From: Trypanosoma brucei
Lineage: Eukaryota
Length of the DNA stretch: 64,000 nucleotides
Assembly: GCA_000002445.1 (NCBI GenBank)
Contig: CP000071.1
Location: 1,152,001 to 1,216,000, forward strand
Direction: 5' to 3'
The position numbers and the translations under genes are program-made. Positions 42,850 to 57,364 of this stretch are shown one piece after another (position 1 is the stretch's first letter; every line of letters begins with the position of its first letter). The notes below the pieces were generated by a model. It searched no databases. It had not been told where the DNA came from and saw nothing but the letters and a program-made list of their open reading frames with translations.

Positions 42850-44222
42850 TGCAAAAAGTACTAAACAAAATCAACAATCAAAAAAGTCCCACAAAAAAAG
42901 TACACGGTAAGCCAAACAATAAACAACATAAGTCACAAGCAAGCTATCCCCCATTTAAAAGCACCTCCCATCCAAACCATTCCTATCGCGCCTCCCGCCA
43001 GCGCCGTACCAAGGAAGGCAAAGGCACGTCCCACGGAGGAAGCAGAAACCGCCATCGTATGCTTCTTCCTGCAGTTGATGCCACAAAGTGTAATAGAAGG
43101 AGTAAGTGGGATGACAGTGCACGTATCAGTGGGCATGAGCCGTACGGTGATGCGATGCATTTTACGTATCGCTATGAGGTCCTTCCGTCCACATGACGAA
43201 TACAGCTACAAATGATCTTGCACTACAGCGGGTGGTATTAACGATAAGGTTACATCAGCTTCAGCACACTCTGCTTCTGCTTTTAACCCTAGACTTATCT
43301 AATCCCTGCCGCCCATGCAGTTGCATAATTAAATAGAAGATAATAAGGGAGAATGAAAATGAATGAAGATGGGAAAATACGGTGAAGGAACACAAAGGGT
43401 ACTATAGCAGTATAGGAGCACGCCACAAGAAGATGTGCTCGGACAAGCGGATGGATCACCAACAAGATAGGGGACCTTCGGAGGGTTTCACAGTTGGAGT
43501 CAGCATGGACTCACCTCAAAGGAAGACAAATAAGGGAAAAGAATAGAAAAAATAAAATTACGTTCCCCTGTGGCACAACGACGGCAAGCGTCGGGGTACC
43601 TGAAGCTGTACAGGCGTGCTCGCTGTAGCGACCGCACAGTCTTGTATTGTGCACTGCTTCACTGTAACATGATAGTTCATACCCCAATATATGTTGCCTA
43701 CAACCTTGTCCCCTACACACTCAGATGACACCGCACCAGTGGCATGCGGAACCGTAGTGGTAGGAGGCGGCAACCCAGGAACCTCCAGCAGCTGAAAATA
43801 TAATTTTGATGGAGAGATCTCTAGATAGAGCCGGCGTCTATGTATAAACATGCCGGCTGCACTGAGGCCGGCGTTGGGTAACCCCAGAGCCGATGCCAAC
43901 AACAACAAAAAAAAGAAATAACGACCGATCAATAACGATAAGAATGATAATGGTGGAAATACATGTACATGTACGGGAGCACATGAATAACTAGTGAATA
44001 GCGAAAATAGCGATCAGTTGAGTTACTGAGACCTTTCCACCCTGCTCTCACTCAGTTACTGCAAGCACGTGTTGCATGGGAGTGGAAGGACAGTAAGACA
44101 TTGCGCATGTTTGTGTGATAGTCTAGGAAATTCACTGCTCGACCCTTTCTTTGTTGCCGTAGGCAGATGCGTAATCTTGCTCATCCTCATCCAGTGTACT
44201 CACGAATTTCGGACGAGCGGGT
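42850..44222. repeat. Partial relic copy (about 1.37 kb) of the 9.6-kb duplicated unit. It matches 50051-51423 and 59669-61041.
   Basis: Shared ORFs lie at a constant offset of +7201 and +16819 (43160 vs 50361, 43511 vs 50712, 43558 vs 50759, 44069 vs 51270). Identity breaks at both ends. Confidence 0.85.
42933..43160 (-). pseudogene. Truncated 5' fragment (first ~70 codons) of the endonuclease-G-like gene
   Basis: The encoded 'MHRITVRLMPTDTCTVIPLTPSITLCGINCRKKHTMAVSASSVGRAFAFLGTALAGGAIGMV' is identical to the N-terminus of the 506-aa nuclease ORFs at 48841..50361 and 58459..59979. It diverges and terminates after about 75 aa. Confidence 0.7.
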
Positions 44223-44772
44223 GCAGCATTGCACCGTTCACATCACAGCCTGCCATAGCGATTGTTTCTTTTTTTCTCAGGCTATTTGCAAATTGTAGTT
44301 ACCATTGGAGTAATGCGCCAGATAAGGCGGTTTATAAATAATGTCGAGCTGCTCAGTGTCATGCGAACACGTACCTCAGCATTACGGAGGAAAATGGTCT
44401 AGTGTTGTTACCGTGTTTAAATAATTTCGGTCACTTAACAATCTGGTTGTTAGCGTATTGTTTCTTAGGTTTTCTCGCTAGCCGTTCGATTCAAACAATA
44501 CACAACCATTTGTATGCGTGGCCAATCTTAATTATTCAAAAACATGGGAAAACGGAACGTCTGCCAAATTAATGATGTAATGCCCTTAATTGCTATACAT
44601 GCGTGTTACATACAACAACAGCGTTCTTTCAACATGTGTGGTATAGTGCAAACGAAATACAATGCTAAACCCCCACACAGAAGTCCTGTGATGATATCTT
44701 TCTGTTTCTCCACGTAGATGGTGAGCACCATCACGTATTCTGGTGTGACATCAATGCCACTCGTAGCGGTAG

Positions 44773-46413
44773 TCACTCGAACGCCGGCAACCGTACAAAG
44801 GCGAACTTTACGTTGTACGGGCTTACCACCATCAGGAAAAGAAGTACGATAGCTACCGCACCAAGAAGTGCGGAGGAAACGATACCACCGAGACACACAC
44901 CGTCGCATCTAGATAGACGTGAGTCATCTCCGCATACGGACTCAGCTAAGGTAATGTGCTGGCAATCATCCACACACTTCACCATGCAGAGCGGCAACAG
45001 GTGACTCCACTGCTCTTGCTGCGACACTTCTTCAAGGAACATCCGGGTCCACGTCCATGGAGACGAGAACAGCCGCTTCTGCGCACGTCCCTTGCTCATG
45101 CCGGGGGGGCCCCTGTAGTTGGTAATAAGGATGGTATTCTCAAGGTTCATCATTGCAGTAAGGTTTGTCCACGTCGAAACATTTGTACCACCAGGCACGT
45201 TAATCTCACCGGGTGGAAGGAACACAGCATAGAAGTCCTCTGTACGAAAGGCTACCTCCACATCTTTTATAATCCATGAATACAGGGCGTGCATGAGCCG
45301 ATCATTTCCCATTGGGAACGAGGAAGCGCGAAAGGCGGCCACAGCTGTGGATCTCGGAGGTGACCCGGGCGTTGGCGTGGGAGTCACCGGCGGTAGTGGT
45401 GTTGGTGAATAGCATTTCTCACGGACGGCGTACACAGCTGTTTCGGTTATGGCATAATATTCACATCCATTCACCTTAACCAGTGAGACAATCGGCCCAT
45501 GCATCCACTCCATCACCTTCTTAGGGCACAACAGACCGGTTTCAGAGGAATTCAATTCAAGGGACATGATATGGCTCTCGCCGTTAGGTTCACCGTAATA
45601 ATAGAGCTCATTCTCGTCCTCAGTTAACATCAAGGCATCGACATAATCGAGACAACTCATATTGGCGATGTCCCAGCTCTTCTTGTTACCATCCGAATCG
45701 CTGAGGCTATTCAGGTCCACCGCTGCAATCCACGAGGTCTCCTTCACGACATACATGAAATTCCGCTTCTTGCTTATTTGCATCACACCAGGTTGAAAAC
45801 CTCCAACAAGTTTCGCCGTTACATTGTTGGACACACTTATCTGCGAGTACATAATCCTTGAATTTCCAGTATCCGAAATAAATAAAACCGGTGCCCCGTC
45901 TTGTTCATGATAAATAATACTACTCGGTTTATCAACTTCATTGGCCGCAAACTTCGTCACCATTCCATCAGCATCTATCCGCTTCATGCAATCATTATCC
46001 CTGTCCGCCACGTAAATATCATTGTTTACACCAACAACAGAGGTGGGATGATTAAAACGAGCAACCTCTAAAGGACCAACTTCGTCACCACGCTTTGCAA
46101 GATTTCCCGCAACGGTATATATGCCAGTTTTGTTTACGAGTCGCACGGTGGATCCACCACCTCCAACATCACATAAAAGTAAAGGAAAGCTTTTGTTCTT
46201 AAAGAACCCACCCACCGCCTTGAATAAGCGACCAGTACCGTTTATGCCATCCGCCTGCCCACTACTACAGTTGATACAACTGTTGAAGAGGTTCACAATC
46301 ACCTTGGTGCCCACGGTTTGGTCTCCTATAACGGGACTCACAAAACCCAGCAGCAGCAACAACGCTGCCACGAGTGCGGCCAATGCTTCCCGTGATTCAG
46401 TCCTGCCACCCAT
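44773..46413 (-). CDS. NHL-repeat putative surface protein, paralog A (546 aa), with an N-terminal signal peptide and a C-terminal TM anchor
   Basis: Signal-like 'ALAALVAALLLLLGFVSPVIG'. NHL-repeat-like motifs 'IYVADRDNDCMKRIDADG' and 'LFISDTGNSRIMY'. Thr/Pro-rich linker 'PTPLPPVTPTPTPGSPP'. Hydrophobic C-terminus 'LLGAVAIVLLFLMVV'. Confidence 0.6.
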   Translation of the reverse strand: MGGRTESREALAALVAALLLLLGFVSPVIGDQTVGTKVIVNLFNSCINCSSGQADGINGTGRLFKAVGGFFKNKSFPLLLCDVGGGGSTVRLVNKTGIYTVAGNLAKRGDEVGPLEVARFNHPTSVVGVNNDIYVADRDNDCMKRIDADGMVTKFAANEVDKPSSIIYHEQDGAPVLFISDTGNSRIMYSQISVSNNVTAKLVGGFQPGVMQISKKRNFMYVVKETSWIAAVDLNSLSDSDGNKKSWDIANMSCLDYVDALMLTEDENELYYYGEPNGESHIMSLELNSSETGLLCPKKVMEWMHGPIVSLVKVNGCEYYAITETAVYAVREKCYSPTPLPPVTPTPTPGSPPRSTAVAAFRASSFPMGNDRLMHALYSWIIKDVEVAFRTEDFYAVFLPPGEINVPGGTNVSTWTNLTAMMNLENTILITNYRGPPGMSKGRAQKRLFSSPWTWTRMFLEEVSQQEQWSHLLPLCMVKCVDDCQHITLAESVCGDDSRLSRCDGVCLGGIVSSALLGAVAIVLLFLMVVSPYNVKFAFVRLPAFE

Positions 46414-46454
46414 TCCTGTTGCTCCACACTGTGATTCTATCAGTCAGTCGCTAT

Positions 46455-46486
46455 ATGTATATATATATATATATGTATATACCCCA
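46455..46486. repeat. (TA)n / (TATG) microsatellite in a spacer. The same microsatellite occurs at 56073-56104 in unit B.
   Basis: The sequence reads 'tatatgtatatatatatatatatgtatata'. Confidence 0.9.
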
Positions 46487-46783
46487 CGGATCTACCGTTG
46501 GGAAACAAACCTCAACCACAAAAGCGACCTATTAGCTCTGCTCAGTGAACTCACAACTCCCTTTAGTTGTCTTGTGATGATATTATTATTCACACATCAG
46601 AACAAAGAAAACAAAGGAAGCCAAAGGAAGACAAAAGAGGAGAAAGGAATCCGACACGTGAGAGAGAACAACAGTGGACGCAGACAGACGAAAGAAAAAC
46701 ACAGATGCATTGAAGCCACGCATTTAGGGTTGGGGAAACATATTCAGAGTTTGAAAGCCACGCTTCACTCCTTCGTATTTTGA

Positions 46784-47512
46784 CTAAGGCAACGCAGACC
46801 CGCCACCCGCCGGTCCCTTACCAATGTGGAGGAAATTGCAGTACTTCCCACGCCTGCAGCCCTCCCGAGTGAGGAAGAAAGTACATACCCTGCCATATGT
46901 TGCATTTCCCACGTGGCGCTCATTTCGACGGATCTGTGAGAGGCGGTAATCCTCAGAAGAGGATGCTGCACTGGTTGGGAGCAGTGGGGAACCTGCAGGG
47001 GATGGCAGTGGTGTAGCCATGTTCTGTTGATGAGCAGAGTTTCGACCACCCGCCACAACCCCTATTCCCTGTGACGGAGGGGCATGTGGTAGTGATGAGG
47101 ATGCGGTACCCCCCGCACATCCGTAAGGCGGTGTGGTGCCAGTAGCGCTGTTGTGTGGCAGGGGGCACTCCCTCATACGTCCTTCGGCATTAGCGTCCCG
47201 CGGACGACCTGAGGCTACTTGGAGTTCTATAGAGAAAGGGTCGGGGCAGTTAACGCCACAGTGTCCGTTTATGGCTGAATAGAATTCCATAAGTGCCTGA
47301 TGCGCTACGTGTGTCGGTGGGCGCAGCGAGAGGACGTTAGGTGTAGCAACGGACAACACTTTCTCCGATGATAGCGGTTGGTACGGCGAGTTCTGAATCT
47401 TGCGCACGAGGCACACTGCCGATGGGGCTGCATGCTCCACAATGTAGTTCACCATCGCTCTCGTTGTGAGTTGCTGGGTAGTTGACGTTGCTTCCGCAGA
47501 CGAGATGGTCAT
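46784..47512 (-). CDS. CCCH-type zinc-finger protein (duplicated unit, copy A)
   Basis: The C-terminal 'YGRVCTFFLTREGCRRGKYCNFLHIG' matches C-x8-C-x5-C-x3-H exactly. The N-terminal region is Ser/Pro/Ala-rich and low-complexity. Confidence 0.6.
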   Translation of the reverse strand: MTISSAEATSTTQQLTTRAMVNYIVEHAAPSAVCLVRKIQNSPYQPLSSEKVLSVATPNVLSLRPPTHVAHQALMEFYSAINGHCGVNCPDPFSIELQVASGRPRDANAEGRMRECPLPHNSATGTTPPYGCAGGTASSSLPHAPPSQGIGVVAGGRNSAHQQNMATPLPSPAGSPLLPTSAASSSEDYRLSQIRRNERHVGNATYGRVCTFFLTREGCRRGKYCNFLHIGKGPAGGGSALP

Positions 47513-47746
47513 TCAACTGCACGCGTATATACCCCCCACCCGTGCGGTTTTACAATGTTTCCGGGAGAAGAAATGAGGCTACCTTACCTTGGGATATTCA
47601 CCCACACAAACGGAAATTATCAACGATCCTACCTGCTTCGGGGTGGTTCTTCACATGCATCTGAACAAACCAACAACCAGTAGCAGCACAGCAACAATGT
47701 ACAACAAGTATACAATCACACCATCCCACTTACATAGATTCTCCTT

Positions 47747-48460
47747 TTAGTCTTCCTCATCCTCTTTCCCTTCGTAACACACCTCACTTTCCTCCACTTC
47801 CTCATCGCTACTTTCCGATTCAACACCCGAAAAACATTGCCGCCGCAGATTCAAAACCCCACGCGAGTAGTACGTTGCCATTCTTTCCACAGGAAGACTT
47901 AGGAAGTCCTGCACGCATGACGCTCTGTGCTCTTGCATGAATGCTATCACGGCCCACAGTTCAGCCATAGCCCAGATGTCACTACGGAGGGGACTCTTCT
48001 TTTCTGCTTCACCATCCTTTGCAGCGATCGCCACGTGGTCAGTCTTGCTATTATTGTTAGCATGTGACATAGCCCCAGCAAGACACATGTGCTCACCAAC
48101 GAACTTCACTAGCCTATAGTTATGATTGGGATGCACCGTAACGTTTCCAGTGTTGGGACATGGTAGCAATAGGATAGGGGTCTCCTCATCCGTTATGTCC
48201 TGCAGCAACACACCCGCTTGTCCAAGTAGTTGCCGAAGGTTCAGGGACGGTGCGGCAGAGGGCACCTGAGTTACCCTCCCATTAATGCGGATAACAAAGT
48301 GCGCCTCCTCATCGGTTCCACACTCCTTAGATCGGCCGCGCTTGCGAGTTCCCTTAACCACTTCTTGACCCGCCAATCGTGTCATGACCTCTACCAATAC
48401 CTTTAGTGATTGATCAACGGGGGAGAAAATCTTAGATAAGCACATATGGATGGCGCGCAA
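47747..48460 (-). CDS. Hypothetical small protein with an acidic, Ser-rich C-terminus (237 aa), copy A
   Basis: Minus-strand ORF with the C-terminal tail 'SESSDEEVEESEVCYEGKEDEED'. No motif recognised. Confidence 0.45.
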   Translation of the reverse strand: MRAIHMCLSKIFSPVDQSLKVLVEVMTRLAGQEVVKGTRKRGRSKECGTDEEAHFVIRINGRVTQVPSAAPSLNLRQLLGQAGVLLQDITDEETPILLLPCPNTGNVTVHPNHNYRLVKFVGEHMCLAGAMSHANNNSKTDHVAIAAKDGEAEKKSPLRSDIWAMAELWAVIAFMQEHRASCVQDFLSLPVERMATYYSRGVLNLRRQCFSGVESESSDEEVEESEVCYEGKEDEED

Positions 48461-48840
48461 CTGAAGTTGGGATGGCGGCTCGACTGATGCAACGTGACGA
48501 CCAATCTTATCCTAGTCAGAGTGACGTGGTGTAGGTATGGTGAGGCCACTGCAGTCGGAACGCTGAGAGTGTTCAGCACTAAAAACATTTCACGGGAGGA
48601 TCCCTAAACTGACACAGCAACTGTTCATATGTCCACTACACGATGAACCAGGGATACCATCGCGGAGGTGTAATTTAATCCACAGACACTGCGGGAGGTA
48701 TTGCTGGGGTTAGATCTCGAATAGTGCTACAGGCACTCAACAATTGCCGGACACAAAAGACTAATGGACACACACACCGCTTTCTTTGCCTAAAGTGCAG
48801 CCCTGGAAAGTTACAAATAAGGAATGACAGGTACCGTGAG

Positions 48841-50361
48841 TTAACCGGTGTCGTTGGTCGACACAGCCATTAGTTCCCTCAGGCGCTCTCTATATTCCTG
48901 TGCTACAACCCCATCCAGAGCAACTGTTATTCCGGCTGTGTTGCCACACTTCTGCTGCTGTTCTGCAAGCAGGATGCTGTAAACACTCTGCAATTCAGGA
49001 AGAGAACCCGCCGCCCGTAGACGCGCCACGTCTCGGTACGAGCGAAACATTCCTGCGGTACGTGCTTCACACACCACGCGTCTGCAAATATTTGGCAGAG
49101 CATCCAGTTCCCGCCCCCAGAACCGCGCGTCTGACCCAGCAGCGGCCACATTCCGAAAGAACTCCAAACCCGTCAGTCGCTCGATTTCTACCACAGGCAC
49201 CTGGTAAGCTGTGAGGGGCCGCTCCACGGCAATCGGTTCGTTCGGCATTAGGAAGGCAGCAGCTTCATGTGCCCCGTCCGCTCGCTCACCTAATATAACT
49301 TTGAAGAGGTGTGTGGGGACCGCAACGTCGCGCTTGCCCACAAGCTCATAGCAGACAATCTTCCGCAAGTGCACTGCTGCCTTGTCATTTCCACAGTGGC
49401 AGTGTTCTCCAGAAGCCAACACTCCGCTACTCACAGGTTTTACTGGAGACGGACATTGCGATGGTTCCGCCCACCGCCACGTGCGCACATCACCATCCAC
49501 GAGCCGCGGGTGGAAGACAGGTCCCGTCACTACCCACAATCCCCTCTCATAATACCGCCGCAACTTCCGTGTGAGGTTTTCCAACCGCAGCCAGTCGACA
49601 GCATTCATTGTCATGTCCTGTGGTACAGTGTTCGCATTCATGTTAAAGGTCTGAGCCAACTCAACAGTAGAGCTCTTGTGAAACTGTGCGGCAGCAAGGT
49701 GACCTCGGCTGAGGCCTCGTGAGTGCTGTCCCCTGCCACCCCCAATATAGTCACCGGGCTGCACGCGGAACAACTGAGGCACCGTCATGTCCGCAAAGAA
49801 CCTCATTCCATCTCGCTGGGCTTCCGCTGCGGAAGCGTTTACTAAGTCGTTATCAGCCGTGACCACTGAATCAGCAGCAGTGGTCCTGCCGGGGATGTAC
49901 TCCAACACCCAATTAGGGATACGACGCTCATAATTCAGACTAGAAACAAAGCCTTTGTAGTAGCGCAGGTGATCGTCGGACGGAAGCCCCTTGCTTGTAA
50001 GTCTTAGCACGAAAGGAGTAGTTTCCCCACCATCGTCGTTACACCTCTCCTTGGGGTATGCGGGCTGTGGGCATTGCACGTGTAACACCTCCGGACTTGT
50101 GCGCTCAGTCATCTGTTGATACGGAACAGGCGATGGATGGCATTTGTCCACACCAAACCAACCACCACGCTCCACAACCATTCCTATCGCGCCTCCCGCC
50201 AGCGCCGTACCAAGGAAGGCAAAGGCACGTCCCACGGAGGAAGCAGAAACCGCCATCGTATGCTTCTTCCTGCAGTTGATGCCACAAAGTGTAATAGAAG
50301 GAGTAAGTGGGATGACAGTGCACGTATCAGTGGGCATGAGCCGTACGGTGATGCGATGCAT
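48841..50361 (-). CDS. Endonuclease G-like DNA/RNA non-specific nuclease (DRGH/NUC family), copy A. The likely start is the internal Met at about 50256, with a mitochondrial-targeting/TM-like leader.
   Basis: 'HSRGLSRGHLAAAQFHKSSTVELAQTFNMNANTVPQDMTMNAVDWLRLENLTRKL' corresponds to the DRGH active-site motif, and the downstream Asn matches the metal-binding residue of beta-beta-alpha-Me nucleases such as EndoG and Serratia nuclease. The N-terminal 'MAVSASSVGRAFAFLGTALAGGAIGMVV' is hydrophobic and targeting-like. Confidence 0.65.
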   Translation of the reverse strand: MHRITVRLMPTDTCTVIPLTPSITLCGINCRKKHTMAVSASSVGRAFAFLGTALAGGAIGMVVERGGWFGVDKCHPSPVPYQQMTERTSPEVLHVQCPQPAYPKERCNDDGGETTPFVLRLTSKGLPSDDHLRYYKGFVSSLNYERRIPNWVLEYIPGRTTAADSVVTADNDLVNASAAEAQRDGMRFFADMTVPQLFRVQPGDYIGGGRGQHSRGLSRGHLAAAQFHKSSTVELAQTFNMNANTVPQDMTMNAVDWLRLENLTRKLRRYYERGLWVVTGPVFHPRLVDGDVRTWRWAEPSQCPSPVKPVSSGVLASGEHCHCGNDKAAVHLRKIVCYELVGKRDVAVPTHLFKVILGERADGAHEAAAFLMPNEPIAVERPLTAYQVPVVEIERLTGLEFFRNVAAAGSDARFWGRELDALPNICRRVVCEARTAGMFRSYRDVARLRAAGSLPELQSVYSILLAEQQQKCGNTAGITVALDGVVAQEYRERLRELMAVSTNDTG

Positions 50362-51332
50362 TTTACGTATCGCTATGAGGTCCTTCCGTCCACATGACGA
50401 ATACAGCTACAAATGATCTTGCACTACAGCGGGTGGTATTAACGATAAGGTTACATCAGCTTCAGCACACTTTGCTTCTGCTTTTAACCCTAGACTTATC
50501 TAATCCCTGCCGCCCACGCAGTTGCATAATTAAATAGAAGATAATAAGGGAGAATGAAAATGAATGAAGATGGGAAAATACGGTGAAGGAACACAAAGGG
50601 CACTATAGCAGTATAGGAGCACGCCACAAGAAGATGTGCTCGGACAAGCGGATGGATCACCAACAAGATAGGGGACCTTCGGAGGGTTTCACAGTTGGAG
50701 TCAGCATGGACTCACCTCAAAGGAAGACAAATAAGGGAAAAGAATAGAAAAAATAAAATTACGTTCCCCTGTGGCACAACGACGGCAAGCGTCGGGGTAC
50801 CTGAAGCTGTACAGGCGTGCTCGCTGTAGCGACCGCACAGTCTTGTATTGTGCACTGCTTCACTGTAACATGATAGTTCATACCCCAATATATGTTGCCT
50901 ACAACCTTGTCCCCTACACACTCAGATGACACCGCACCAGTGGCATGCGGAACCGTAGTGGTAGGAGGCGGCAACCCAGGAACCTCCAGCAGCTGAAAAT
51001 ATAATTTTGATGGAGAGATCTCTAGATAGAGCCGGCGTCTATGTATAAACATGCCGGCTGCACTGAGGCCGGCGTAGGGTAACCCCAGAGCCGATGCCAA
51101 CAACAACAAAAAAAAGAAATAACGACCGATCAATAACGATAAGAATGATAATGGTGGAAATACATGTACATGTACGGGAGCACATGAATAACTAGTGAAT
51201 AGCGAAAATAGCGATCAGTTGAGTTACTGAGACCTTTCCACCCTGCTCTCACTCAGTTACTGCAAGCACGTGTTGCATGGGAGTGGAAGGACAGTAAGAC
51301 ATTGCGCATGTTTGTGTGATAGTCTAGGAAAT

Positions 51333-53591
51333 TCACTGCTCGACCCTTTCTTTGTTGCCGTAGGCAGATGCGTAATCTTGCTCATCCTCATCCAGTGTAC
51401 TCACGAATTTCGGACGAGCGGGTGCGACTACGGCGGCAAGGCGTCTGCGTTTCGATGTGAACACGACAGCTAACACGATGAGGACGGCTACGATAAGTGC
51501 ACACACTACCGCGATTATGATTAGGCACACGCGACCGCACTTTGGCGCCTTCTCTGTGGTGGGTCTGACGGTATCGTTGTTCAGGTGGTCGTTCAAGTCT
51601 TGCCAGTCAATCTCACCGACGCATTCCGACACATCGAACGTATAGTTTCCAGGAATGAATACTTCGTACAGACTCATCTCAACGTAGGGTGGCTGGTAAA
51701 AAAGCGATACCGTGCGGTTCGTTATCGTGGACTGGCATACTCCAGTTACATTGCTATCAAGTGCCGTGGCAATGGTGGTTCGGCTATGGTCACCAACCTC
51801 TTCCCTACGTGCCATGCTTCTCCCGGTGCTACGTTCTTCACATTTCTTTATTTGATTCATCACCTCGTCGTGTATGTACCAGCGTACTTCCTGTTCCTCA
51901 TCCGGAGTCAGTGATGAGAAGTTGAACGGGGGATTGGAGAAGGTTACATCGACGTGAGTGTCCGAGCTCCGCAAGTATTTGATGAATGAGTGGGCAGTCT
52001 CAGTGAGGTTCGCATCTGACAGCAAGTCGTGGGTCACGGTGTTGTTGAACGAGGCTGGCATCAGTAGCTTCACTGTTGTGATATTTTCAGCGTCACTGCT
52101 CTCAGCCTTAAGGGGCATGTCCGCGTAGATGAGCGTGAAATTGAGTACCTCACCCGCCTCCTTTGCGAGCTTCCGACGGAGAGCATCAAGACTCAGGCGA
52201 TTGCAATATGGGACCATTGTGCTGTCCATGTACACCTGTTCGTCAGTAAGGTTGTAGTACTCATCCGCAGCCTCCTTTGTGTGTTCATAGTTACTCTCGT
52301 GCAAGGCCTGTTCGGTTTTCTCGTCATCAAAGTCCGGCTGTTGCACACCGGCGGTGAAATTCGTTAGCCATGTTGTGGAGTCCACATGTACGGAAGAAGA
52401 GGCAACAATACTTTCGGTGGTGCCGAGCGCAGTGTTGATGTCCTCAGTGAGGTTCCCCACAATCCACTCCATGATGTCTTTATCAGGGTATCCAACTGGT
52501 AACGGGCGCCCGGGGAAGAGACCCTGCACGTACACTGGTGGAAGTGTCACAGAACGCAGGACACTTTTCTTTTCCGATGTAACATACATTTCGTACTCCG
52601 TCACCACGAGCAATCGGGTTATCTCACAAAGAAGCGTGTCATCTCCCTCAGTATTGGGAAGACACGAGTTCGTGCTTCCTCCGGCGAATCGTTTCGTCGT
52701 AAGTTTATTACCGTCGGTCGAAACGCGGTGTAACTCATTTTGTGTTGCCGCGAGTAGATCACCAGACCGTGTGCTGGTAATGTCCACATATTCACCATCC
52801 ACCTCTGCGATCTTGTGGCCCTGCAGGTCGAACCAGCAGATGGTGCCCTGCTTCGCGGGGCCGCGAGCAACAACAAAGATGCCCTGCTGCGTGGCGGCAA
52901 TGCCGATGGGACCATAGATACTGCAGTTTGCACTCAGAGCCACGTGGCTGTGACATGCGATTGGGTCACCGTCGCTTCCCACTTCACACGTCCATACAGT
53001 ATTTGTGTTTTGCTCTGTCAGATACAGGTGGTTCCCGTACAAAGCTACGCCTGTCAGCGAGCCATTGCGGACTACGTCATGAGAGAAGACACCGCTGTCC
53101 TTGAAATACTTCACCTCACCCATACTCTCAACAAAGTAAACAAATGTGGAGCCACCAACTGTCCACTGCACGCAGGCGCGCGGTTTGTCAACTTTGACAC
53201 TACGCGACCCGCTTTTCTGATCCTCGTCTGTCTCCCATGCCGTGATTGTAGTGGTCTCACGGTTCTTGCGCGAGAAGGCACGGAAGCGGTCAACTGTCCC
53301 CAAAAGGATCTCGTCACTATTCCTGCCTCTGCACATAGCGTGGGGTGACGATAATTCCGACATGCCAGGGAACCCGTCCTTATCACCAATATGACCGTAC
53401 TTGCCAGCGACGGTGGTCACATGGCGCTTCAGTTCAATGGGAGCGGCTCCACTTCTCACTACAATCGTTGCGACGGTGGCCACGAGCAAAAGCATCTGGG
53501 ATACGTAACCTAAGTGCACGGTTCCTACTACTTCCCTCACATTCATTGTTTCCACCTCACAGTTGGTTTGTTTCCACAACGGCATGCGCAA
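51333..53591 (-). CDS. NHL/beta-propeller-like type-I transmembrane glycoprotein (752 aa), copy A
   Basis: Hydrophobic N-terminal segment 'MLLLVATVATIVV'. NHL-like segments 'GVALYGNHLYLTEQNTNTVW' and 'GIFVVARGPAKQGTICWFD'. Many N-x-S/T sequons. Single TM 'CLIIIAVVCALIVAVLIVLAVVF' followed by a basic stop-transfer 'TSKRRR' and a short acidic tail. Confidence 0.6.
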   Translation of the reverse strand: MRMPLWKQTNCEVETMNVREVVGTVHLGYVSQMLLLVATVATIVVRSGAAPIELKRHVTTVAGKYGHIGDKDGFPGMSELSSPHAMCRGRNSDEILLGTVDRFRAFSRKNRETTTITAWETDEDQKSGSRSVKVDKPRACVQWTVGGSTFVYFVESMGEVKYFKDSGVFSHDVVRNGSLTGVALYGNHLYLTEQNTNTVWTCEVGSDGDPIACHSHVALSANCSIYGPIGIAATQQGIFVVARGPAKQGTICWFDLQGHKIAEVDGEYVDITSTRSGDLLAATQNELHRVSTDGNKLTTKRFAGGSTNSCLPNTEGDDTLLCEITRLLVVTEYEMYVTSEKKSVLRSVTLPPVYVQGLFPGRPLPVGYPDKDIMEWIVGNLTEDINTALGTTESIVASSSVHVDSTTWLTNFTAGVQQPDFDDEKTEQALHESNYEHTKEAADEYYNLTDEQVYMDSTMVPYCNRLSLDALRRKLAKEAGEVLNFTLIYADMPLKAESSDAENITTVKLLMPASFNNTVTHDLLSDANLTETAHSFIKYLRSSDTHVDVTFSNPPFNFSSLTPDEEQEVRWYIHDEVMNQIKKCEERSTGRSMARREEVGDHSRTTIATALDSNVTGVCQSTITNRTVSLFYQPPYVEMSLYEVFIPGNYTFDVSECVGEIDWQDLNDHLNNDTVRPTTEKAPKCGRVCLIIIAVVCALIVAVLIVLAVVFTSKRRRLAAVVAPARPKFVSTLDEDEQDYASAYGNKERVEQ

Positions 53592-54257
53592 TCGAGAAAT
53601 TACAGTGGGGTCACTAGCCTCTGCCTTACCTAACGCGAAAGGATCCAGTGTTCTGTTAACTTCCTCTAATTACCTGCCCTCAGAGAGAGGCCGGCTACAA
53701 TTCCTTATATGGCACCCCAGAAGCGCGGCACAAGAGTCGCGGGCAACGAAGACGCAAAAAAGAAGGAAAGGGATAGACAAAGAATAGGTACGCGAAGAGA
53801 CTTTTGGTCATTGGAACGCCAAAACTCGTATGTAATGTATACAGGTGACTGTTCACGCAGAACCTGCAAATGTTGCTTCCAACTCTACGGTCTCTTCTAA
53901 AACGATGCAGCTGCAAAATCAAAAGTGCCTTTTAAAACATATTGCGTAGCAAATTTTTTTTTCTTTGGGGGGGGGAGGTAGTGGAGGGAAAACATTTTAA
54001 ATGGGTATACCTATTCTATCACTTACGTAATCACACGCTTTTTCTTACTGTCATAAATACGTATTTTCTGCACAAAAAGATTTGTTTCCTCACCCAAAAT
54101 GAGCAAGGTGTAGCCATCACATGACGACCAGAAACGCACACCCACCCAACTCTAACCTCATGCGAAGTAGTCGCAGAGGTTGCCTCTCACTATTCCCCAC
54201 CGGCTGTCACCTCCATTACGTATCCATGAGTGACTCCGAAGTCACTTGCAGCTCCAA

Positions 54258-56030
54258 CTACTCCAGCGCCGGCAGTCGCACAAAAGTAGATCTTGCATTC
54301 GGTGGACTTGCTATGAGCAACCACAGCAGCATGATGGCAAGAAGGCCCAAGAGCACTGAGGAGGCGATTCCTGCAGCACGCAGGTCCTCATGCACCTGGA
54401 ACTGAAGCTCGTCTACACACAGAGATTCATTGAAGGAAATGTACTGACAATCATCCACACACTTCACCATGCAGAATGGTGATAGGTGATCCCACTCCTC
54501 TTGTCGTACCAATTCATCAAGAAACTTCCGTGTCCAGTTCCATGGAGACGAGAACAACCGCTTCTGTAGTTCTTGCTTGCTCCTACCAGGAGGCCCTTGG
54601 TAGTTGGTAATAAGGATGTTCTTGTCGAAGTTCTCTAGAGCTGTCAAGTTTGTCCACGTCGAAACATTTGTACCACCAGGCACGTCATTGTAACCTGGGG
54701 GGAGGAAAACAGCAAAAAAGTCATCTGTGCCGAAAGCGATCTCAACATCCCTCATAATCCACGAATACAGAGCATGCATAAGTTTTACATCATCAATTGG
54801 GAACGAAGAAGCGCGAAAGGCGGCAACAGCTGTGGGTCTCGGAGGTGAAGGGGGATCCGGATTGGGAGTAATCGGCGGCGGCGGCGGCGGCGGTGGTGGT
54901 GGTGGCGGTGGCGGTGGCGGCTGCACTGATGGTGATGGTGACGGCGATGCTGATGGGCTGGGAGAAGGTGATGGCGGCACCGAAGGCGTGGGAGGGGGCG
55001 TTGGTGGAGGCGTTGGCGTCGGTGTATAGCCTACATCACGAATGGCATACACGGCCGTTTCTGTTGTAGCATAATACTCTTTGTCATTCACCCTCAACAA
55101 TGAGACAATCCGATCATAGTCCCATTTCAACATTGACTGCGCACACCATTGGGATGCTGGAGATGGGCGTTCCACCTCTAGTGACATGATGTACCCCTCT
55201 CCATTGGGCTCACCGTAATAATATAGTTTATCCTCTGCTTGAGTCAGCATCAGAGCACTTTTGTAGTGCAGACACGTCACATCACCTATATCCTTACTTT
55301 TTCCAATATCAGACTCCCCAGTTTTGCTCAAATTAACCGCTGCAATCCATGAGGTGTTTTTTACGACATACATCATGTTCTTTTCTTTGCTTATTTGCAT
55401 CACACCAGGTTGGAAGCCAGCGACTAGTGTAGTTACCACTGTGTTATTAGCATCCAGTGGCACATAAAGGATCTGCGAATTGCCTGTGTCGGAAATGAAT
55501 AGATTCTGAGTCCCGTTCAATGTGAATGGGAGAATATCCTTCGGTTTGTTAAGGTCTTGTGGTCCATATCTGGTTACATTGCCCTCAGCATCTATTCGCC
55601 TAATACAGTTGTTATCCCTGTCTGCCACGTAAATATCATCGTTGACGCTTACAACTGAGGTGGGATTGTTGAATAGTGCATCTCCCTTGGGGCCGTCTTT
55701 ATTACCACGTTGCGTCAGACTGCCTGCAATTGTATATATGCCAGTTTTGTTTACGAGTCGCACGGTGGATCCACCACCTTCGATATCACATAAAAGTAAA
55801 GGAAAACGCTTCTTTTGGAAGAAACCACCAGACGCCTTGAAAAGTTTTCCCTTTGCACTTTCGCCATCCGCCTGCCCAACAGTACAAGTAGTACAACTGT
55901 TGAAGAGGTTCACAATCACCTTGGTGCCCACGGTTTGGTCTCCTATAACGGGACTCACAAAACCCAGCAGCAGCAACAACGCTGCCACGAGTGCGGCCAA
56001 TGCTTCCCGTGATTCAGTCCTGCCACCCAT
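54258..56030 (-). CDS. NHL-repeat putative surface protein, paralog B (590 aa), with an expanded poly-Pro/Ser-Pro linker
   Basis: The first 46 aa are identical to paralog A. The remainder is about 75-80% identical to A. A 60-aa insertion 'PPTPSVPPSPSPSPSASPSPSPSVQPPPPPPPPPPPPPPPPITPNPDPPSPP' is present. C-terminal TM 'LLGLLAIMLLWLLIA'. Confidence 0.6.
   Translation of the reverse strand: MGGRTESREALAALVAALLLLLGFVSPVIGDQTVGTKVIVNLFNSCTTCTVGQADGESAKGKLFKASGGFFQKKRFPLLLCDIEGGGSTVRLVNKTGIYTIAGSLTQRGNKDGPKGDALFNNPTSVVSVNDDIYVADRDNNCIRRIDAEGNVTRYGPQDLNKPKDILPFTLNGTQNLFISDTGNSQILYVPLDANNTVVTTLVAGFQPGVMQISKEKNMMYVVKNTSWIAAVNLSKTGESDIGKSKDIGDVTCLHYKSALMLTQAEDKLYYYGEPNGEGYIMSLEVERPSPASQWCAQSMLKWDYDRIVSLLRVNDKEYYATTETAVYAIRDVGYTPTPTPPPTPPPTPSVPPSPSPSPSASPSPSPSVQPPPPPPPPPPPPPPPPITPNPDPPSPPRPTAVAAFRASSFPIDDVKLMHALYSWIMRDVEIAFGTDDFFAVFLPPGYNDVPGGTNVSTWTNLTALENFDKNILITNYQGPPGRSKQELQKRLFSSPWNWTRKFLDELVRQEEWDHLSPFCMVKCVDDCQYISFNESLCVDELQFQVHEDLRAAGIASSVLLGLLAIMLLWLLIASPPNARSTFVRLPALE
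54878..54932. repeat. GGC/GGT trinucleotide repeat (about 18 units) encoding the poly-proline run of paralog B
   Basis: The sequence reads 'ggcggcggcggcggcggcggtggtggtggtggcggtggcggtggcggc'. Confidence 0.9.
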
Positions 56031-56401
56031 TCCTGTTGCTCCACACTGTGATTCTATCAGTCAGTCGCTATATGTATATATATATATATATGTATATACC
56101 CCACGGATCTACCGTTGGGAAACAAACCTCAACCACAAAAGCGACCTATTAGCTCTGCTCAGTGAACTCACAACTCCCTTTAGTTGTCTTGTGATGATAT
56201 TATTATTCACACATCAGAACAAAGGAAAACAAAGGAAGCCAAAGGAAGACAAAAGAGGAGAAAGGAATCCGACACGTGAGAGAGAACAACAGTGGACGCA
56301 GACAGACGAAAGAAAAACACAGATGCATTGAAGCCACGCATTTAGGGTTGGGGAAACATATTCAGAGTTTGAAAGCCACGCTTCACTCCTTCGTATTTTG
56401 A

Positions 56402-57130
56402 CTAAGGCAACGCAGACCCGCCACCCGCCGGTCCCTTACCAATGTGGAGGAAATTGCAGTACTTCCCACGCCTGCAGCCCTCCCGAGTGAGGAAGAAAGT
56501 ACATACCCTGCCATATGTTGCATTTCCCACGTGGCGCTCATTTCGACGGATCTGTGAGAGGCGGTAATCCTCAGAAGAGGATGCTGCACTGGTTGGGAGC
56601 AGTGGGGAACCTGCAGGGGATGGCAGTGGTGTAGCCATGTTCTGTTGATGAGCAGAGTTTCGACCACCCGCCACAACCCCTATTCCCTGTGACGGAGGGG
56701 CATGTGGTAGTGATGAGGATGCGGTACCCCCCGCACATCCGTAAGGCGGTGTGGTGCCAGTAGCGCTGTTGTGTGGCAGGGGGCACTCCCTCATACGTCC
56801 TTCGGCATTAGCGTCCCGCGGACGACCTGAGGCTACTTGGAGTTCTATAGAGAAGGGGTCGGGGCAGTTAACGCCACAGTGTCCGTTTATGGCTGAATAG
56901 AATTCCATAAGTGCCTGATGCGCTACGTGTGTCGGTGGGCGCAGCGAGAGGACGTTAGGTGTAGCAACGGACAACACTTTCTCCGATGATAGCGGTTGGT
57001 ACGGCGAGTTCTGAATCTTGCGCACGAGGCACACTGCCGATGGGGCTGCATGCTCCACAATGTAGTTCACCATCGCTCTCGTTGTGAGTTGCTGGGTAGT
57101 TGACGTTGCTTCCGCAGACGAGATGGTCAT
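56402..57130 (-). CDS. CCCH-type zinc-finger protein, copy B
   Basis: Translation is identical to 46784..47512. Confidence 0.6.
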   Translation of the reverse strand: MTISSAEATSTTQQLTTRAMVNYIVEHAAPSAVCLVRKIQNSPYQPLSSEKVLSVATPNVLSLRPPTHVAHQALMEFYSAINGHCGVNCPDPFSIELQVASGRPRDANAEGRMRECPLPHNSATGTTPPYGCAGGTASSSLPHAPPSQGIGVVAGGRNSAHQQNMATPLPSPAGSPLLPTSAASSSEDYRLSQIRRNERHVGNATYGRVCTFFLTREGCRRGKYCNFLHIGKGPAGGGSALP

Positions 57131-57364
57131 TCAACTGCACGCGTATATACCCCCCACCCGTGCGGTTTTACAATGTTTCCGGGAGAAGAAATGAGGCTAC
57201 CTTACCTTGGGATATTCACCCACACAAACGGAAATTATCAACGATCCTACCTGCTTCGGGGTGGTTCTTCACATGCATCTGAACAAACCAACAACCAGTA
57301 GCAGCACAGCAACAATGTACAACAAGTATACAATCACACCATCCCTCTTACATAGATTCTCCTT

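What the first reader, a model, noticed from the sequence alone, without database searches (positions are those of the whole stretch)
44773..46275. Divergence confined to the body of the NHL-repeat surface-protein gene inside an otherwise identical duplication
Paralogs A (546 aa) and B (590 aa) share a base-identical 5' end (first 46 codons, signal peptide) and identical upstream spacer. From codon ~47 to the stop they are only about 75-80% identical. The differences include a 60-aa Pro/Ser-Pro linker expansion in B, radical changes in the first NHL blade, and a different TM segment. Every other gene in the unit is identical. A sharp conversion-tract boundary together with ectodomain diversification fits diversifying selection on an exposed surface protein, or mosaic gene formation as seen in trypanosome surface-antigen families. 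The third copy at the window end carries a B-type 3' end.
Basis: partly seen in the sequence, partly recalled or inferred. Interest (0 to 1): 0.55.

Follow-up and report, generated by a model that had tools for sequence, protein, structure and literature searches.

The report
Trypanosome FLA1/FLA2 flagellum-adhesion gene paralogs
These are the already well-studied Trypanosoma brucei flagellum-adhesion genes FLA1 (insect stage) and FLA2 (bloodstream stage): two old paralogs under purifying selection inside a tandem array whose other parts recombination keeps nearly identical, not a diversifying surface antigen.

Summary
Paralogs A (44773..46413, minus strand, 546 aa) and B (54258..56030, 590 aa) share identical upstream DNA and their first 46 codons. 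Beyond that, identity falls at once to 68% nucleotide and 61% amino acid, not the 75-80% stated. The flanking 8.1 kb differs at only 5 positions.

The window is T. brucei TREU927 chromosome 8. A is FLA1 (Tb927.8.4010, procyclic form). B is FLA2 (Tb927.8.4060, bloodstream form). The copy at the window end is Tb927.8.4110. The 750-aa gene in each unit is FLA1BP. The 44-aa proline-rich insertion and about 60% identity match published descriptions.

- dN/dS is about 0.2 with saturated dS, and no window exceeds 0.5.
- FLA2 copies compared across subspecies differ by 8 synonymous and 1 nonsynonymous change.
- There are three family members, in a housekeeping polycistron.

So these are old, functionally constrained stage-specific paralogs. 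The sharp boundary is a recombination (gene conversion or unequal crossover) boundary within a three-unit array. FLA1's body and its unrelated 3' flank form an unhomogenised island in the terminal unit.

Small additions are a near-identical patch at codons 76-99 and a similar pattern in T. congolense. Novelty: already known. Interest is low.

The parts
44773..46413 (-). FLA1 coding sequence (paralog A, 546 aa; Tb927.8.4010)
   Evidence: 100% identical over 100% of its length to NCBI 'flagellum-adhesion glycoprotein [T. brucei brucei TREU927]'. Gene ID and name come from PMC4827413 Table 1.
46275..46413 (-). Codons 1-46 (signal peptide and start of the mature protein), base-identical in FLA1 and FLA2. 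This is the end of the homogenised tract.
   Evidence: No differences between 46275..46413 and 55892..56030. The same 46 codons are present in copy C of T. b. equiperdum.
44773..46274 (-). Diverged FLA1 body (codon 47 to stop)
   Evidence: 67.6% nucleotide and 61% amino-acid identity to FLA2. dS about 1.4 (saturated), dN 0.28, omega about 0.2.
46117..46188 (-). Near-identical patch inside the diverged body (codons 76-99)
   Evidence: 69/72 nt identical and dS 0.055, flanked by saturated segments. There is a run of 22 conserved codons with identical codon choice (permutation p=0.0004).
45358..45411 (-). Short Thr/Pro linker of FLA1 (about 18 aa, codons 335-352)
   Evidence: Read directly from the sequence. 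The AF2 model is disordered at 339-352.
44824..44901 (-). FLA1 transmembrane helix (aa 505-530), followed by a 16-aa tail
   Evidence: Kyte-Doolittle hydrophobic segment at 503-540. AF2 helix at 505-530.
44225..44772 (-). FLA1-specific 3' flank (presumed 3' UTR), unrelated to the FLA2 3' flank
   Evidence: blastn with word size 7 and E<1e-3 finds no match elsewhere in the window. tblastn finds no FLA1BP remnant.
42971..44224 (-). Remnant of the repeat unit downstream of FLA1: last 93 bp of FLA1BP, the 124-aa ORF, and the first 190 bp of the endonuclease-like gene
   Evidence: 99.6% and 99.5% identical to 50171..51425 and 59789..61043. tblastn confirms the gene fragments.
54258..56030 (-). FLA2 coding sequence (paralog B, 590 aa; Tb927.8.4060, FLA2-1)
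   Evidence: ORF. Gene order and count match the IDs 4010 to 4110 in PMC4827413 Table 1. The 64 kDa size, about 60% identity to FLA1 and bloodstream-form expression come from PMC4827413, PMC3546053 and PMC2443814.
54843..55028 (-). Expanded Thr/Ser/Pro linker of FLA2 (about 62 aa, including a run of 16 Pro encoded by CCN repeats). Net +44 aa relative to FLA1.
   Evidence: Linker length differs between copies and strains (6-bp indel in one comparison, and both a 12-bp and a 36-bp indel in another, relative to T. b. equiperdum copies).
53592..54257 (-). FLA2 3' flank and intergenic region before FLA1BP
   Evidence: 100% identical to 63210..63875 (downstream of copy C) and unrelated to the FLA1 3' flank.
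63876..64000 (-). 3' end of the third FLA gene (copy C; Tb927.8.4110, FLA2-2, the 'FLA3' of Sun et al.), cut by the window end
   Evidence: 100% identical to B's last 125 bp. In the collinear T. b. equiperdum locus L001 the full copy (7565..9331, 588 aa) is FLA2-type throughout.
46275..54382 (-). Homogenised repeat unit, copy 1. Contains the FLA 5' end, the CCCH zinc-finger gene, the 237-aa gene, the endonuclease-like gene, the 124-aa ORF, FLA1BP, and the FLA2 3' flank and 3' end.
   Evidence: 5 differences in 8,108 bp against copy 2.
55892..64000 (-). Homogenised repeat unit, copy 2 (period 9,617 bp)
51333..53585 (-). FLA1BP copy 1 (750 aa from the first ATG; Tb927.8.4050)
   Evidence: 99% identical to the T. 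b. equiperdum 750-aa protein P0023 and 54% to T. congolense P0024, which lies next to a FLA gene. The name is assigned from gene order and the 83-kDa size in PMC4827413 Table 1.
60951..63203 (-). FLA1BP copy 2 (Tb927.8.4100), protein identical to copy 1

Best explanation
The region is the T. brucei chromosome-8 flagellum-adhesion locus. It is a three-unit tandem array of [237-aa gene, CCCH zinc-finger gene, FLA, FLA1BP, 124-aa ORF, endonuclease-like gene], transcribed as one polycistron.

The first two units carry FLA2, the bloodstream-form paralog. The truncated last unit carries FLA1, the procyclic-form paralog. Both are type-I membrane glycoproteins with this layout: signal peptide, six-bladed NHL beta-propeller, Thr/Ser/Pro stalk, alpha/beta C-domain, TM helix and short tail. 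They sit in the cell-body membrane of the flagellum attachment zone and bind a FLABP partner on the flagellar membrane.

FLA1 and FLA2 are old paralogs. Synonymous sites are saturated, and their protein divergence is about the same as the T. brucei to T. congolense distance. Both are under purifying selection.

The rest of the array is kept almost identical by ongoing recombinational homogenisation (gene conversion and/or unequal crossing-over). The tract coming from upstream stops at codon 46/47. From there to 93 bp before the end of what would be FLA1BP, the terminal unit carries FLA1-specific sequence: the gene body plus an unrelated 3' flank.

That island escapes homogenisation for two inferred reasons. 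About 32% nucleotide divergence blocks heteroduplex extension. Overwriting FLA1, or its stage-specific 3' UTR, would also be selected against.

Shown here: the anatomy, the boundaries, the divergence strata, low omega, and the protein architecture.

Taken from the literature: the names, stage specificity, FAZ function and partner binding.

Inferred: conversion as the mechanism, the reason the island persists, the 3' UTR as the basis of stage regulation, and the longer FLA2 stalk as an adaptation to the VSG coat.
For: Identity of the genes:
- A is 100% identical to the TREU927 flagellum-adhesion glycoprotein on a 2.48-Mb contig.
- Gene order and count match Tb927.8.4010 to 4110, with FLA1 at 59 kDa, FLA2/FLA3 at 64 kDa and FLA1BP at 83 kDa (PMC4827413 Table 1).
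- FLA2 is reported as 61-65% identical to FLA1 and bloodstream-specific (PMC3546053, PMC2443814, PMC12831198).

Anatomy of the array:
- 8,108 bp carry 5 differences, followed by an abrupt drop in identity at 46274.
- The 3' flanks of A and B are unrelated.
- A unit remnant lies downstream of FLA1 at 99.5% identity.
- In collinear T. b. equiperdum DNA, copy C is FLA2-type. It has the same first 46 codons and is preceded by further copies of the zinc-finger and 237-aa genes. All three FLA genes therefore share the homogenised 5' region.

Selection:
- Omega is about 0.2 overall, and no window comes near 1.
- There are 8 synonymous and 1 nonsynonymous differences between subspecies.
- Substitutions are concentrated in propeller loops: 48% identity in loops against 68% in strands, p=0.001.

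Repeated, patchy conversion:
- The codon 76-99 patch has dS 0.055 (p=0.0004).
- The C-domain has dS about 0.75, whereas the propeller is saturated (Fisher p=0.007).

Protein architecture:
- Pfam NHL match.
- AF2 model, with top Foldseek hits to the NHLRC2 NHL domain at E=2e-11.
- Hydrophobic N- and C-terminal segments.

Parallels and precedent:
- The T. congolense paralogs P0002 and P0003 are identical at both ends and differ only in propeller patches and the linker.
- The T. congolense contig L002 has zinc-finger gene, FLA, FLABP, endonuclease fragment, then ABC1, the same end-of-array layout.
- 'Mixed dynamics' arrays such as PGK and the hexose transporters are described in PMC1855330.
Against: - Gene conversion is inferred from the pattern and was not observed. 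With only the window, one unequal crossover at codon 46/47 could produce the same A/B boundary.
- The TREU927 sequence beyond the window end was not available. Copy C's 5' end is known only from T. b. equiperdum.
- Orthology between the T. brucei and T. congolense paralogs could not be resolved. The T. congolense paralogs group together with 87-100% bootstrap in every region. Quartet sites split 4 against 1, which is not significant. The age of the duplication relative to speciation is therefore uncertain.
- With saturated dS, a pairwise omega cannot exclude episodic positive selection soon after duplication.
- The AF2 model is only moderate (mean pLDDT 67), and residues 18-61 are poorly modelled.
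- The signal peptide was judged from hydropathy and the literature, not with a dedicated predictor.
Confidence: 0.8

Rival explanations
1. Diversifying (positive) selection on an immune-exposed surface protein, or VSG-like segmental mosaic formation that generates antigenic variants.
For: - The protein is a surface-membrane glycoprotein, and most substitutions fall in ectodomain loops.
- N-glycosylation sequons are almost completely repositioned: 9 in FLA1, 10 in FLA2, only 3 shared.
- There are mosaic patches of identity and divergence.
Against: - Omega is about 0.2, and no window exceeds 0.5 apart from a 24-codon patch with only 3 differences in total.
- FLA2 shows 8 synonymous and 1 nonsynonymous change between T. 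b. brucei and T. b. equiperdum.
- There are only three copies and no donor archive.
- The locus is chromosome-internal and housekeeping.
- FLA2 functionally replaces FLA1 in procyclic cells (PMC12831198), so the paralogs retain the same function.
- The ectodomains face the narrow cell body-flagellum junction of the FAZ (PMC4827413).
Confidence: 0.04
2. A single very recent tandem duplication by unequal crossing-over between FLA2 and FLA1 at codon 46/47, with no ongoing homogenisation. On this view B is simply a chimaera of the FLA1 5' end and the FLA2 body, and the boundary is the duplication junction.
For: - There are exactly two 9,617-bp copies in the window, about 0.06% apart.
- Their phase ends at codon 46/47 of the next FLA gene.
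- Unequal crossover is a recognised mechanism in T. brucei arrays (PMC1855330).
Against: - A single event predicts that copy C keeps an older, diverged 5' end and upstream region. In T. b. equiperdum, C has the same 46 codons and is preceded by near-identical zinc-finger (95-100%) and 237-aa gene copies.
- It does not explain the 99.5% identical unit remnant downstream of FLA1.
- It does not explain the internal codon 76-99 patch or the lower dS of the C-domain.
- T. congolense shows an EndoG fragment next to ABC1 at its array end too, which suggests an old multi-unit array.
Confidence: 0.13
3. Assembly artefact: the near-identical units and the sharp boundary come from mis-assembly or duplication of a repeat in the reference sequence.
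For: Near-perfect 9.6-kb repeats are difficult to assemble. The T. b. equiperdum copy of B carries a 1-bp frameshift that looks like a sequencing error.
Against: - An independent assembly of another subspecies has the same order, with two FLA2 copies and repeated FLA1BP, endonuclease and zinc-finger genes.
- The two units differ at 5 specific positions.
- The literature treats Tb927.8.4050/4100 and 4060/4110 as real duplicates (PMC4827413, PMC12831198).
- FLA1 and FLA2 mRNAs are distinct and differentially expressed (PMC2443814).
Confidence: 0.02

Closest known systems
T. brucei FLA1 / FLA2 / 'FLA3' (Tb927.8.4010, Tb927.8.4060, Tb927.8.4110) with FLA1BP (Tb927.8.4050/4100)
   Same: These are the same genes. 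A is 100% identical to the TREU927 protein. The gene order, sizes, about 60% identity, NHL domain and longer FLA2 (64 kDa against 59 kDa in PMC4827413 Table 1, consistent with the 44-aa linker insertion seen here) all match published descriptions (PMC4827413, PMC3546053, PMC12831198; LaCount et al. 2002 is cited from memory for the 44-aa proline-rich insertion).
   Different: Nothing differs in kind. The papers I could read do not spell out the exact position of the identity boundary (codon 46/47), the codon 76-99 patch, the unrelated 3' flanks or the unit remnant downstream of FLA1.
T. cruzi GP72 and single-copy FLA genes of other trypanosomatids
   Same: They are homologous over the full length (42-45% identity). 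They share the architecture, including a Thr/Pro-rich linker, which in GP72 carries phosphoglycans (PMC3630849), and the flagellum attachment function.
   Different: They are single-copy in most species. Duplication into stage-specific forms is reported only for T. brucei and T. congolense (PMC12831198, citing De Liz 2023).
'Mixed-dynamics' tandem arrays of T. brucei with stage- or compartment-specific isoforms (PGK A/B/C; hexose transporters THT1/THT2), Jackson 2007
   Same: These are tandem paralogs in one polycistron. Segments homogenised by conversion or unequal crossover abut divergent segments. The paralogs have distinct UTRs and functionally differentiated isoforms, and chimaeric copies occur (PMC1855330).
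   Different: Here the repeat unit has five or six genes and includes the gene for the binding partner (FLA1BP). The FLA array is not mentioned in that survey's main text.
VSG mosaic gene formation and other trypanosome surface-antigen families
   Same: Both involve a trypanosome surface glycoprotein and segmental recombination between paralogs.
   Different: This locus has no large silent archive and no subtelomeric or expression-site context. It is under purifying rather than diversifying selection, and there are two fixed functional types rather than a changing repertoire.

Membership tests
FLA/GP72 flagellum-adhesion glycoprotein family | Full-length sequence homology to T. brucei FLA1 / T. 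cruzi GP72 | tested here: met
   A is 100% identical to the TREU927 'flagellum-adhesion glycoprotein'. A and B are 40-60% identical over more than 90% of their length to the FLA/GP72 proteins of most of T. congolense, T. vivax, T. rangeli, T. cruzi and T. grayi.
FLA/GP72 flagellum-adhesion glycoprotein family | NHL-repeat beta-propeller ectodomain | tested here: met
   Pfam NHL: B scores 28.8 bits (cut-off 20) and A scores 17.6 bits, below the cut-off. The AF2 model has an all-beta region at residues 62-337, and the top Foldseek hit is the NHLRC2 NHL domain 6g7w at E=1.8e-11.
FLA/GP72 flagellum-adhesion glycoprotein family | Type-I topology: N-terminal signal peptide, single C-terminal TM helix, short cytoplasmic tail, multiple N-glycosylation sequons | tested here: met
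   Hydrophobic segments lie at 7-34 and 503-540 in A and at 549-579 in B. A has 9 sequons and B has 10. AF2 gives a helix at 505-530. No dedicated signal-peptide or GPI predictor was available. The topology agrees with PMC10675206.
FLA/GP72 flagellum-adhesion glycoprotein family | Thr/Ser/Pro-rich linker between the propeller and the C-terminal domain | tested here: met
   Read directly from the sequence: about 18 aa in A and about 62 aa in B. It is present in all homologues.
FLA/GP72 flagellum-adhesion glycoprotein family | [quoted passage not shown] | not testable with these tools
   Literature only: PMC12831198, PMC4827413, PMC3546053.
Stage-specific FLA1 (procyclic) / FLA2 (bloodstream) paralog pair | Differential expression between life-cycle stages | not testable with these tools
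   Literature: fla1 is up in procyclic forms and fla2 (Tb927.8.4060) is up 2.6-3.5 fold in bloodstream forms (PMC2443814). The unrelated 3' flanks seen here are consistent with this.
Mixed-dynamics tandem gene array (concerted evolution with a protected divergent copy) | Near-identical repeat segments abutting strongly diverged segments at discrete boundaries within one array | tested here: met
   5 differences in 8,108 bp are followed by 32% divergence from 46274 onward. Identity resumes at 44224 (99.5%).
Mixed-dynamics tandem gene array (concerted evolution with a protected divergent copy) | The divergent copy has its own flanking or UTR sequence and lies at a structurally disrupted position | tested here: met
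   FLA1 has a unique 548-bp 3' flank. FLA1BP is missing from its unit, and the unit is truncated 190 bp into the endonuclease gene.
Mixed-dynamics tandem gene array (concerted evolution with a protected divergent copy) | The divergent copy retains orthology with another species while the other copies evolve in concert | tested here: inconclusive
   The T. congolense paralogs cluster together in every region (87-100% bootstrap). Quartet sites split 4 against 1, which is not significant.
Antigenically variable / mosaic surface-antigen family (VSG-like) | Large repertoire of donor genes or pseudogenes | tested here: not met
   Three copies are present in the array (window plus L001). The two protein searches returned no other T. 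brucei relatives.
Antigenically variable / mosaic surface-antigen family (VSG-like) | Excess of nonsynonymous change (omega above 1) in exposed regions | tested here: not met
   Omega is about 0.2 overall. The highest estimable windows are 0.39 and 0.49. Between subspecies there are 8 synonymous and 1 nonsynonymous differences.
Antigenically variable / mosaic surface-antigen family (VSG-like) | Subtelomeric or expression-site genomic context | tested here: not met
   The neighbours are housekeeping genes on one strand: ABC1 kinase, thymidylate kinase, MMS19, CAF1A and a Nopp140-like protein.

The most novel reading that the evidence does not exclude
The conversion boundaries themselves may be informative. 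In T. brucei, homogenisation stops at codon 46/47 and spares the whole FLA1 body and 3' UTR. In T. congolense, the two FLA paralogs have been homogenised everywhere except for about ten short propeller-loop patches, the stalk, and one patch in the C-domain.

If selection against conversion maintains these residual islands, they mark the minimal determinants of paralog identity: which FLABP partner is recruited, and how long a stalk is needed under a VSG or a procyclin coat. That would give a ready-made map for domain-swap experiments.

A possible compensated frameshift that removes the conserved juxtamembrane Cys-x3-Cys motif in FLA2 would be a second paralog-specific feature.
Probability: 0.3. 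Interest if true: 0.35.

Novelty: already known. Interest (0 to 1): 0.2.

Why it matters
FLA1/FLA2 and their binding partners hold the trypanosome flagellum to the cell body, and they are essential for cell morphogenesis and division. The genes, their stage specificity and their roughly 60% identity have been published for two decades, so the finding adds no new biology.

The modest added value is a precise map of the locus:
- which parts are homogenised: the upstream genes, the 5' UTR and codons 1-46, the codon 76-99 patch, and the downstream remnant;
- which parts are kept distinct: the propeller loops, the stalk length, the TM region and the 3' UTR.

This map could guide domain-swap and UTR-reporter experiments on partner specificity and stage regulation. 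It also explains why RNAi or probes directed at the 5' end will hit all three genes.

Tried and rejected
1. The look-up of encoding contigs with window proteins (B, the 752-, 750- and 506-aa ORFs, and P0001) gave five look-ups with nothing on record. TREU927 DNA beyond the window end could therefore not be read. The T. b. equiperdum locus L001 was obtained instead through the FLA1BP homologue P0023.
2. B (FLA2) itself is absent from the 5.8-billion-protein collection. The FLA2 search returned FLA1 as its best hit.
3. I tried to assign orthology of FLA1 and FLA2 to the two T. congolense paralogs. I used per-domain NJ bootstraps and quartet-site counts. The result was inconclusive: the T. congolense copies always group together, and quartet sites split 4 against 1.
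4. I looked for a second T. congolense FLA gene next to FLABP P0025, to compute dS between the T. congolense paralogs. There is no FLA sequence in the 1.9 kb upstream, and L003 was not available to scripts.
5. I looked for remnants of FLA1BP in the FLA1 3' flank. Only the last 31 aa are present.
6. BLASTP of FLA1 against FLA1BP gave no significant similarity (E=0.4), although both are described as NHL proteins.
7. LaCount 2002 (PMID 11877446) and De Liz 2023 (Trends Parasitol) are not held. Statements from them are quoted second-hand or from memory.
8. Jackson 2007 does not mention the FLA array in its main text.
10. I considered and rejected the VSG-like mosaic antigen, assembly artefact and GPI-anchored protein readings. 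The protein has a TM helix plus a tail.
Full report
**Observation.** All ORFs of the region lie on the minus strand. Paralog A is 44773..46413 (546 aa) and paralog B is 54258..56030 (590 aa).

A self-comparison of the window shows that 45961..54382 aligns with 55577..64000, a period of 9,617 bp. A base-by-base alignment shows only four substitutions and one 1-bp indel between 46275..54382 and 55892..64000, which is 8,108 bp. Differences start abruptly at 46274, with 7 in the next 13 bp.

The last 125 bp of the window are identical to B's 3' end and only 57% identical to A's. The third copy is B-type, also as stated.

Several details need correcting:
- Identity after codon 46 is 67.6% (nucleotide) and 61% (protein), not 75-80%.
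- The net linker insertion is 44 aa.
- The other genes of the unit differ by three coding substitutions, one of them nonsynonymous.
- The divergence does not stop at the stop codon. A's 548-bp 3' flank (44225..44772) has no detectable similarity to B's 666-bp 3' flank.
- Near-identity (99.5-99.6%) resumes only at 42971..44224. That segment corresponds to a non-contiguous part of the unit: the last 93 bp of the 750-aa gene, the 124-aa ORF, and the first 190 bp of the endonuclease-like gene.

**What it is.** A is 100% identical over its full length to the NCBI protein 'flagellum-adhesion glycoprotein [Trypanosoma brucei brucei TREU927]' on a 2.48-Mb contig.

The gene order, read in the direction of transcription, runs:
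1. FLA (cut by the window end);
2. the 750-aa gene, the endonuclease-like gene (PF01223), the 237-aa gene and the CCCH zinc-finger gene;
3. FLA (B);
4. the same four genes again;
5. FLA (A).

This fits the published identifiers exactly: Tb927.8.4110, 4100 to 4070, 4060, 4050 to 4020, and 4010. FLA1 is Tb927.8.4010 (59 kDa, procyclic). FLA2 is Tb927.8.4060, and 'FLA3'/FLA2-2 is Tb927.8.4110 (64 kDa, bloodstream). FLA1BP is Tb927.8.4050/4100 (83 kDa) (PMC4827413 Table 1; PMC12831198).

The literature already reports the following:
- FLA2 is about 60-65% identical to FLA1 and bloodstream-specific (PMC3546053, PMC2443814, PMC12831198).
- FLA2 can replace FLA1 in procyclic cells (PMC12831198).

From memory, LaCount et al. 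2002 described FLA2 as carrying a 44-aa proline-rich insertion. That is exactly the difference seen here.

**Protein anatomy.** Both proteins have a hydrophobic N-terminal segment (aa 7-34) and one C-terminal hydrophobic segment, followed by a tail of roughly 10-16 residues.

An AlphaFold2 model of FLA1 (mean pLDDT 67) gives these regions:
- an all-beta region at 62-337;
- a disordered linker at 339-352;
- an alpha/beta domain at 354-500;
- a TM helix at 505-530.

The best PDB matches are NHL and YWTD six-bladed propellers, led by NHLRC2 6g7w at E=1.8e-11. Pfam NHL is matched above threshold in B and just below it in A.

FLA1/FLA2 identity is 68% in modelled strands and 48% in loops (p=0.001). 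N-glycosylation sequons are almost completely repositioned: 9 in FLA1 and 10 in FLA2, with 3 shared. FLA2 also lacks four cysteines that FLA1 has.

**Locus architecture beyond the window.** The 750-aa protein is 99% identical to a T. b. equiperdum protein (P0023). Its genomic locus, L001, could be fetched.

L001 9207..22253 is collinear with window 64000..50893, so L001 1..9206 lies beyond the window end. In that stretch, copy C (7565..9331, 588 aa) is FLA2-type over its whole length and has the same first 46 codons. It differs from TREU927 B by 8 synonymous substitutions, 1 nonsynonymous substitution and a 6-bp poly-Pro indel.

Copy C is preceded by another copy of the zinc-finger gene and of the 237-aa gene. 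Upstream of those lie unrelated genes.

The array therefore has three units of [237-aa gene, zinc-finger gene, FLA, FLA1BP, 124-aa ORF, endonuclease-like gene]. In the last unit, the stretch from FLA codon 47 to 93 bp before the FLA1BP stop is occupied by the FLA1 body plus its unique 3' flank. That unit ends 190 bp into the endonuclease gene, just before the ABC1-kinase gene.

A T. congolense contig (L002) shows the order zinc-finger gene, FLA (582 aa), FLABP (862 aa), endonuclease 5' fragment, ABC1. This is the same end-of-array layout.

**Divergence analysis.** I used Nei-Gojobori estimates on the codon alignment.

| Region | dS | dN | omega |
|---|---|---|---|
| Codons 47-546 | 1.40 | 0.28 | 0.20 |
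| Propeller | 1.8 | not recorded | 0.16 |
| C-domain | 0.83 | not recorded | 0.27 |
| TM and tail | saturated | not recorded | not estimable |

No 50-codon window exceeds 0.39, and the 16 codons right after the boundary give 0.49. There is no signal of diversifying selection.

Synonymous divergence is heterogeneous:
- Among conserved degenerate codons, 86% are identical in codons 47-96. The figures are 48% in codons 97-335 (p=8e-5) and 67% in the C-domain (p=0.007).
- Codons 76-99 form a near-identical patch (69/72 nt, dS 0.055). It includes a run of 22 same-codon positions (permutation p=0.0004) and lies between saturated segments.

The gene thus carries at least three age strata. That pattern is expected from repeated, patchy conversion between old paralogs.

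At the protein level, FLA1-FLA2 identity (61%) is about the same as T. brucei to T. congolense identity (60-65%). The split is therefore old. Whether it predates speciation could not be resolved.

The T. congolense paralogs are identical at both ends. They differ only in short propeller patches, the linker and one C-domain patch. This parallels the T. brucei pattern but has been homogenised further.

**Mechanism.** The best explanation is concerted evolution of a multi-gene tandem array, by gene conversion and/or unequal crossing-over, with one protected island.

The homogenising tract stops at codon 46/47. I infer two reasons: roughly 32% divergence blocks heteroduplex extension, and overwriting FLA1 or its 3' UTR would remove the procyclic-stage form.

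In trypanosomes, polycistronic transcription leaves stage regulation mainly to 3' UTRs. This is established knowledge, and examples are cited in PMC1855330. The unrelated 3' flanks of FLA1 and FLA2 are therefore the likely basis of their opposite stage expression. That step is inferred and was not tested.

The longer Thr/Ser/Pro stalk of FLA2 may suit the thicker VSG coat. The suggestion that coat differences drove the duplication comes from PMC4827413 and PMC12831198, and the link to stalk length is my inference.

Jackson 2007 (PMC1855330) describes the same kind of 'mixed dynamics' array, with phosphoglycerate kinase and the hexose transporters as examples.

**Rivals.**
- Diversifying selection or VSG-like mosaicism is contradicted by omega, by the 8:1 synonymous to nonsynonymous polymorphism ratio, by the family size and by the genomic context.
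- A single recent unequal crossover at codon 46/47 would give the A/B boundary. It does not explain the shared 5' region and upstream genes of copy C, the downstream remnant, or the internal patch. It may still be one of the events involved.
- An assembly artefact is unlikely, given an independent assembly with the same structure and distinct, differentially expressed mRNAs.

**Verdict.** The object is the well-known FLA1/FLA2 pair. Novelty is 'already known' and interest is low. The fine map of homogenised and protected segments is a small, usable addition.

Noticed in passing
window 506..3378 (ORF 105..3722, minus strand): About 28 tandem copies of a 102-bp unit (95-97% identical) lie inside a 1205-aa ORF with an SRP40 C-terminal domain. 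It looks like a Nopp140-like repeat protein.
   Followed up: partly
window 4583..12315: Three tandem copies of about 2.6 kb (6347..8975 matches 8973..11601 at 99.85%). Each carries an ORF of 316-383 aa with no Pfam match. Internal 27-bp repeat arrays differ in length (8782..8978 and 11408..11739).
   Followed up: no
window 46117..46188 vs 55734..55805: A 72-bp near-identical patch (codons 76-99) sits inside the otherwise saturated FLA1/FLA2 divergence. It is probably a short separate conversion tract.
   Followed up: yes
window 54372..54416 (FLA2 codons 539-553) vs 44869..44913 (FLA1 codons 501-515): FLA2 lacks the conserved juxtamembrane Cys-x3-Cys motif present in FLA1 and in every other species. 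Read in another frame, the FLA2 DNA gives 'SRCMRTCV'. Nucleotide identity to FLA1 rises from 16/45 in frame to 21/45 at offset +2. This may be a compensated frameshift, but the evidence is weak.
   Followed up: partly
window 46170..46275 (FLA1 codons 47-75): The 29 codons just after the identity boundary carry three N-glycosylation sequons in FLA1 (N48, N58, N73), all absent from FLA2. Overall only 3 of 9 or 10 sequons are shared.
   Followed up: partly
window 51333..53585 and 60951..63203: The procyclic-stage partner gene FLA1BP lies immediately downstream of each bloodstream-stage FLA2 gene. FLA1 itself has no adjacent FLABP, only the last 93 bp of one. Partner genes and their ligands are thus arranged out of step in the array (names from PMC4827413).
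   Followed up: partly
L001 5926..6179 (T. b. equiperdum; equivalent to window about 57443..57700): The first (upstream-terminal) copy of the 237-aa gene has its own roughly 250-bp island of unalignable sequence, flanked by 99-100% identity. This is a second 'divergence island' in a terminal unit of the same array.
   Followed up: no
L001 17144..18891: The T. b. equiperdum equivalent of copy B is split into two ORFs by a 1-bp deletion. Its Pro-rich linker also differs by a 12-bp insertion and a 36-bp deletion. The frameshift may be an assembly error. The linker looks like a length-variable CCN microsatellite.
   Followed up: partly
L002 (T. congolense CAEQ01000640.1) 260..9101: The order is zinc-finger gene, FLA (582 aa), FLABP (862 aa), endonuclease 5' fragment (aa 13-158), ABC1. 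A truncated endonuclease copy next to ABC1 occurs in both species. This suggests the multi-unit array predates their split.
   Followed up: partly
window 46452..46480 and 56069..56097: A (TA)n-type microsatellite lies about 40 bp upstream of the FLA start codon. It is identical in A and B. In the T. b. equiperdum copy C the spacer just upstream of the start codon, which includes this repeat, has indels.
   Followed up: no
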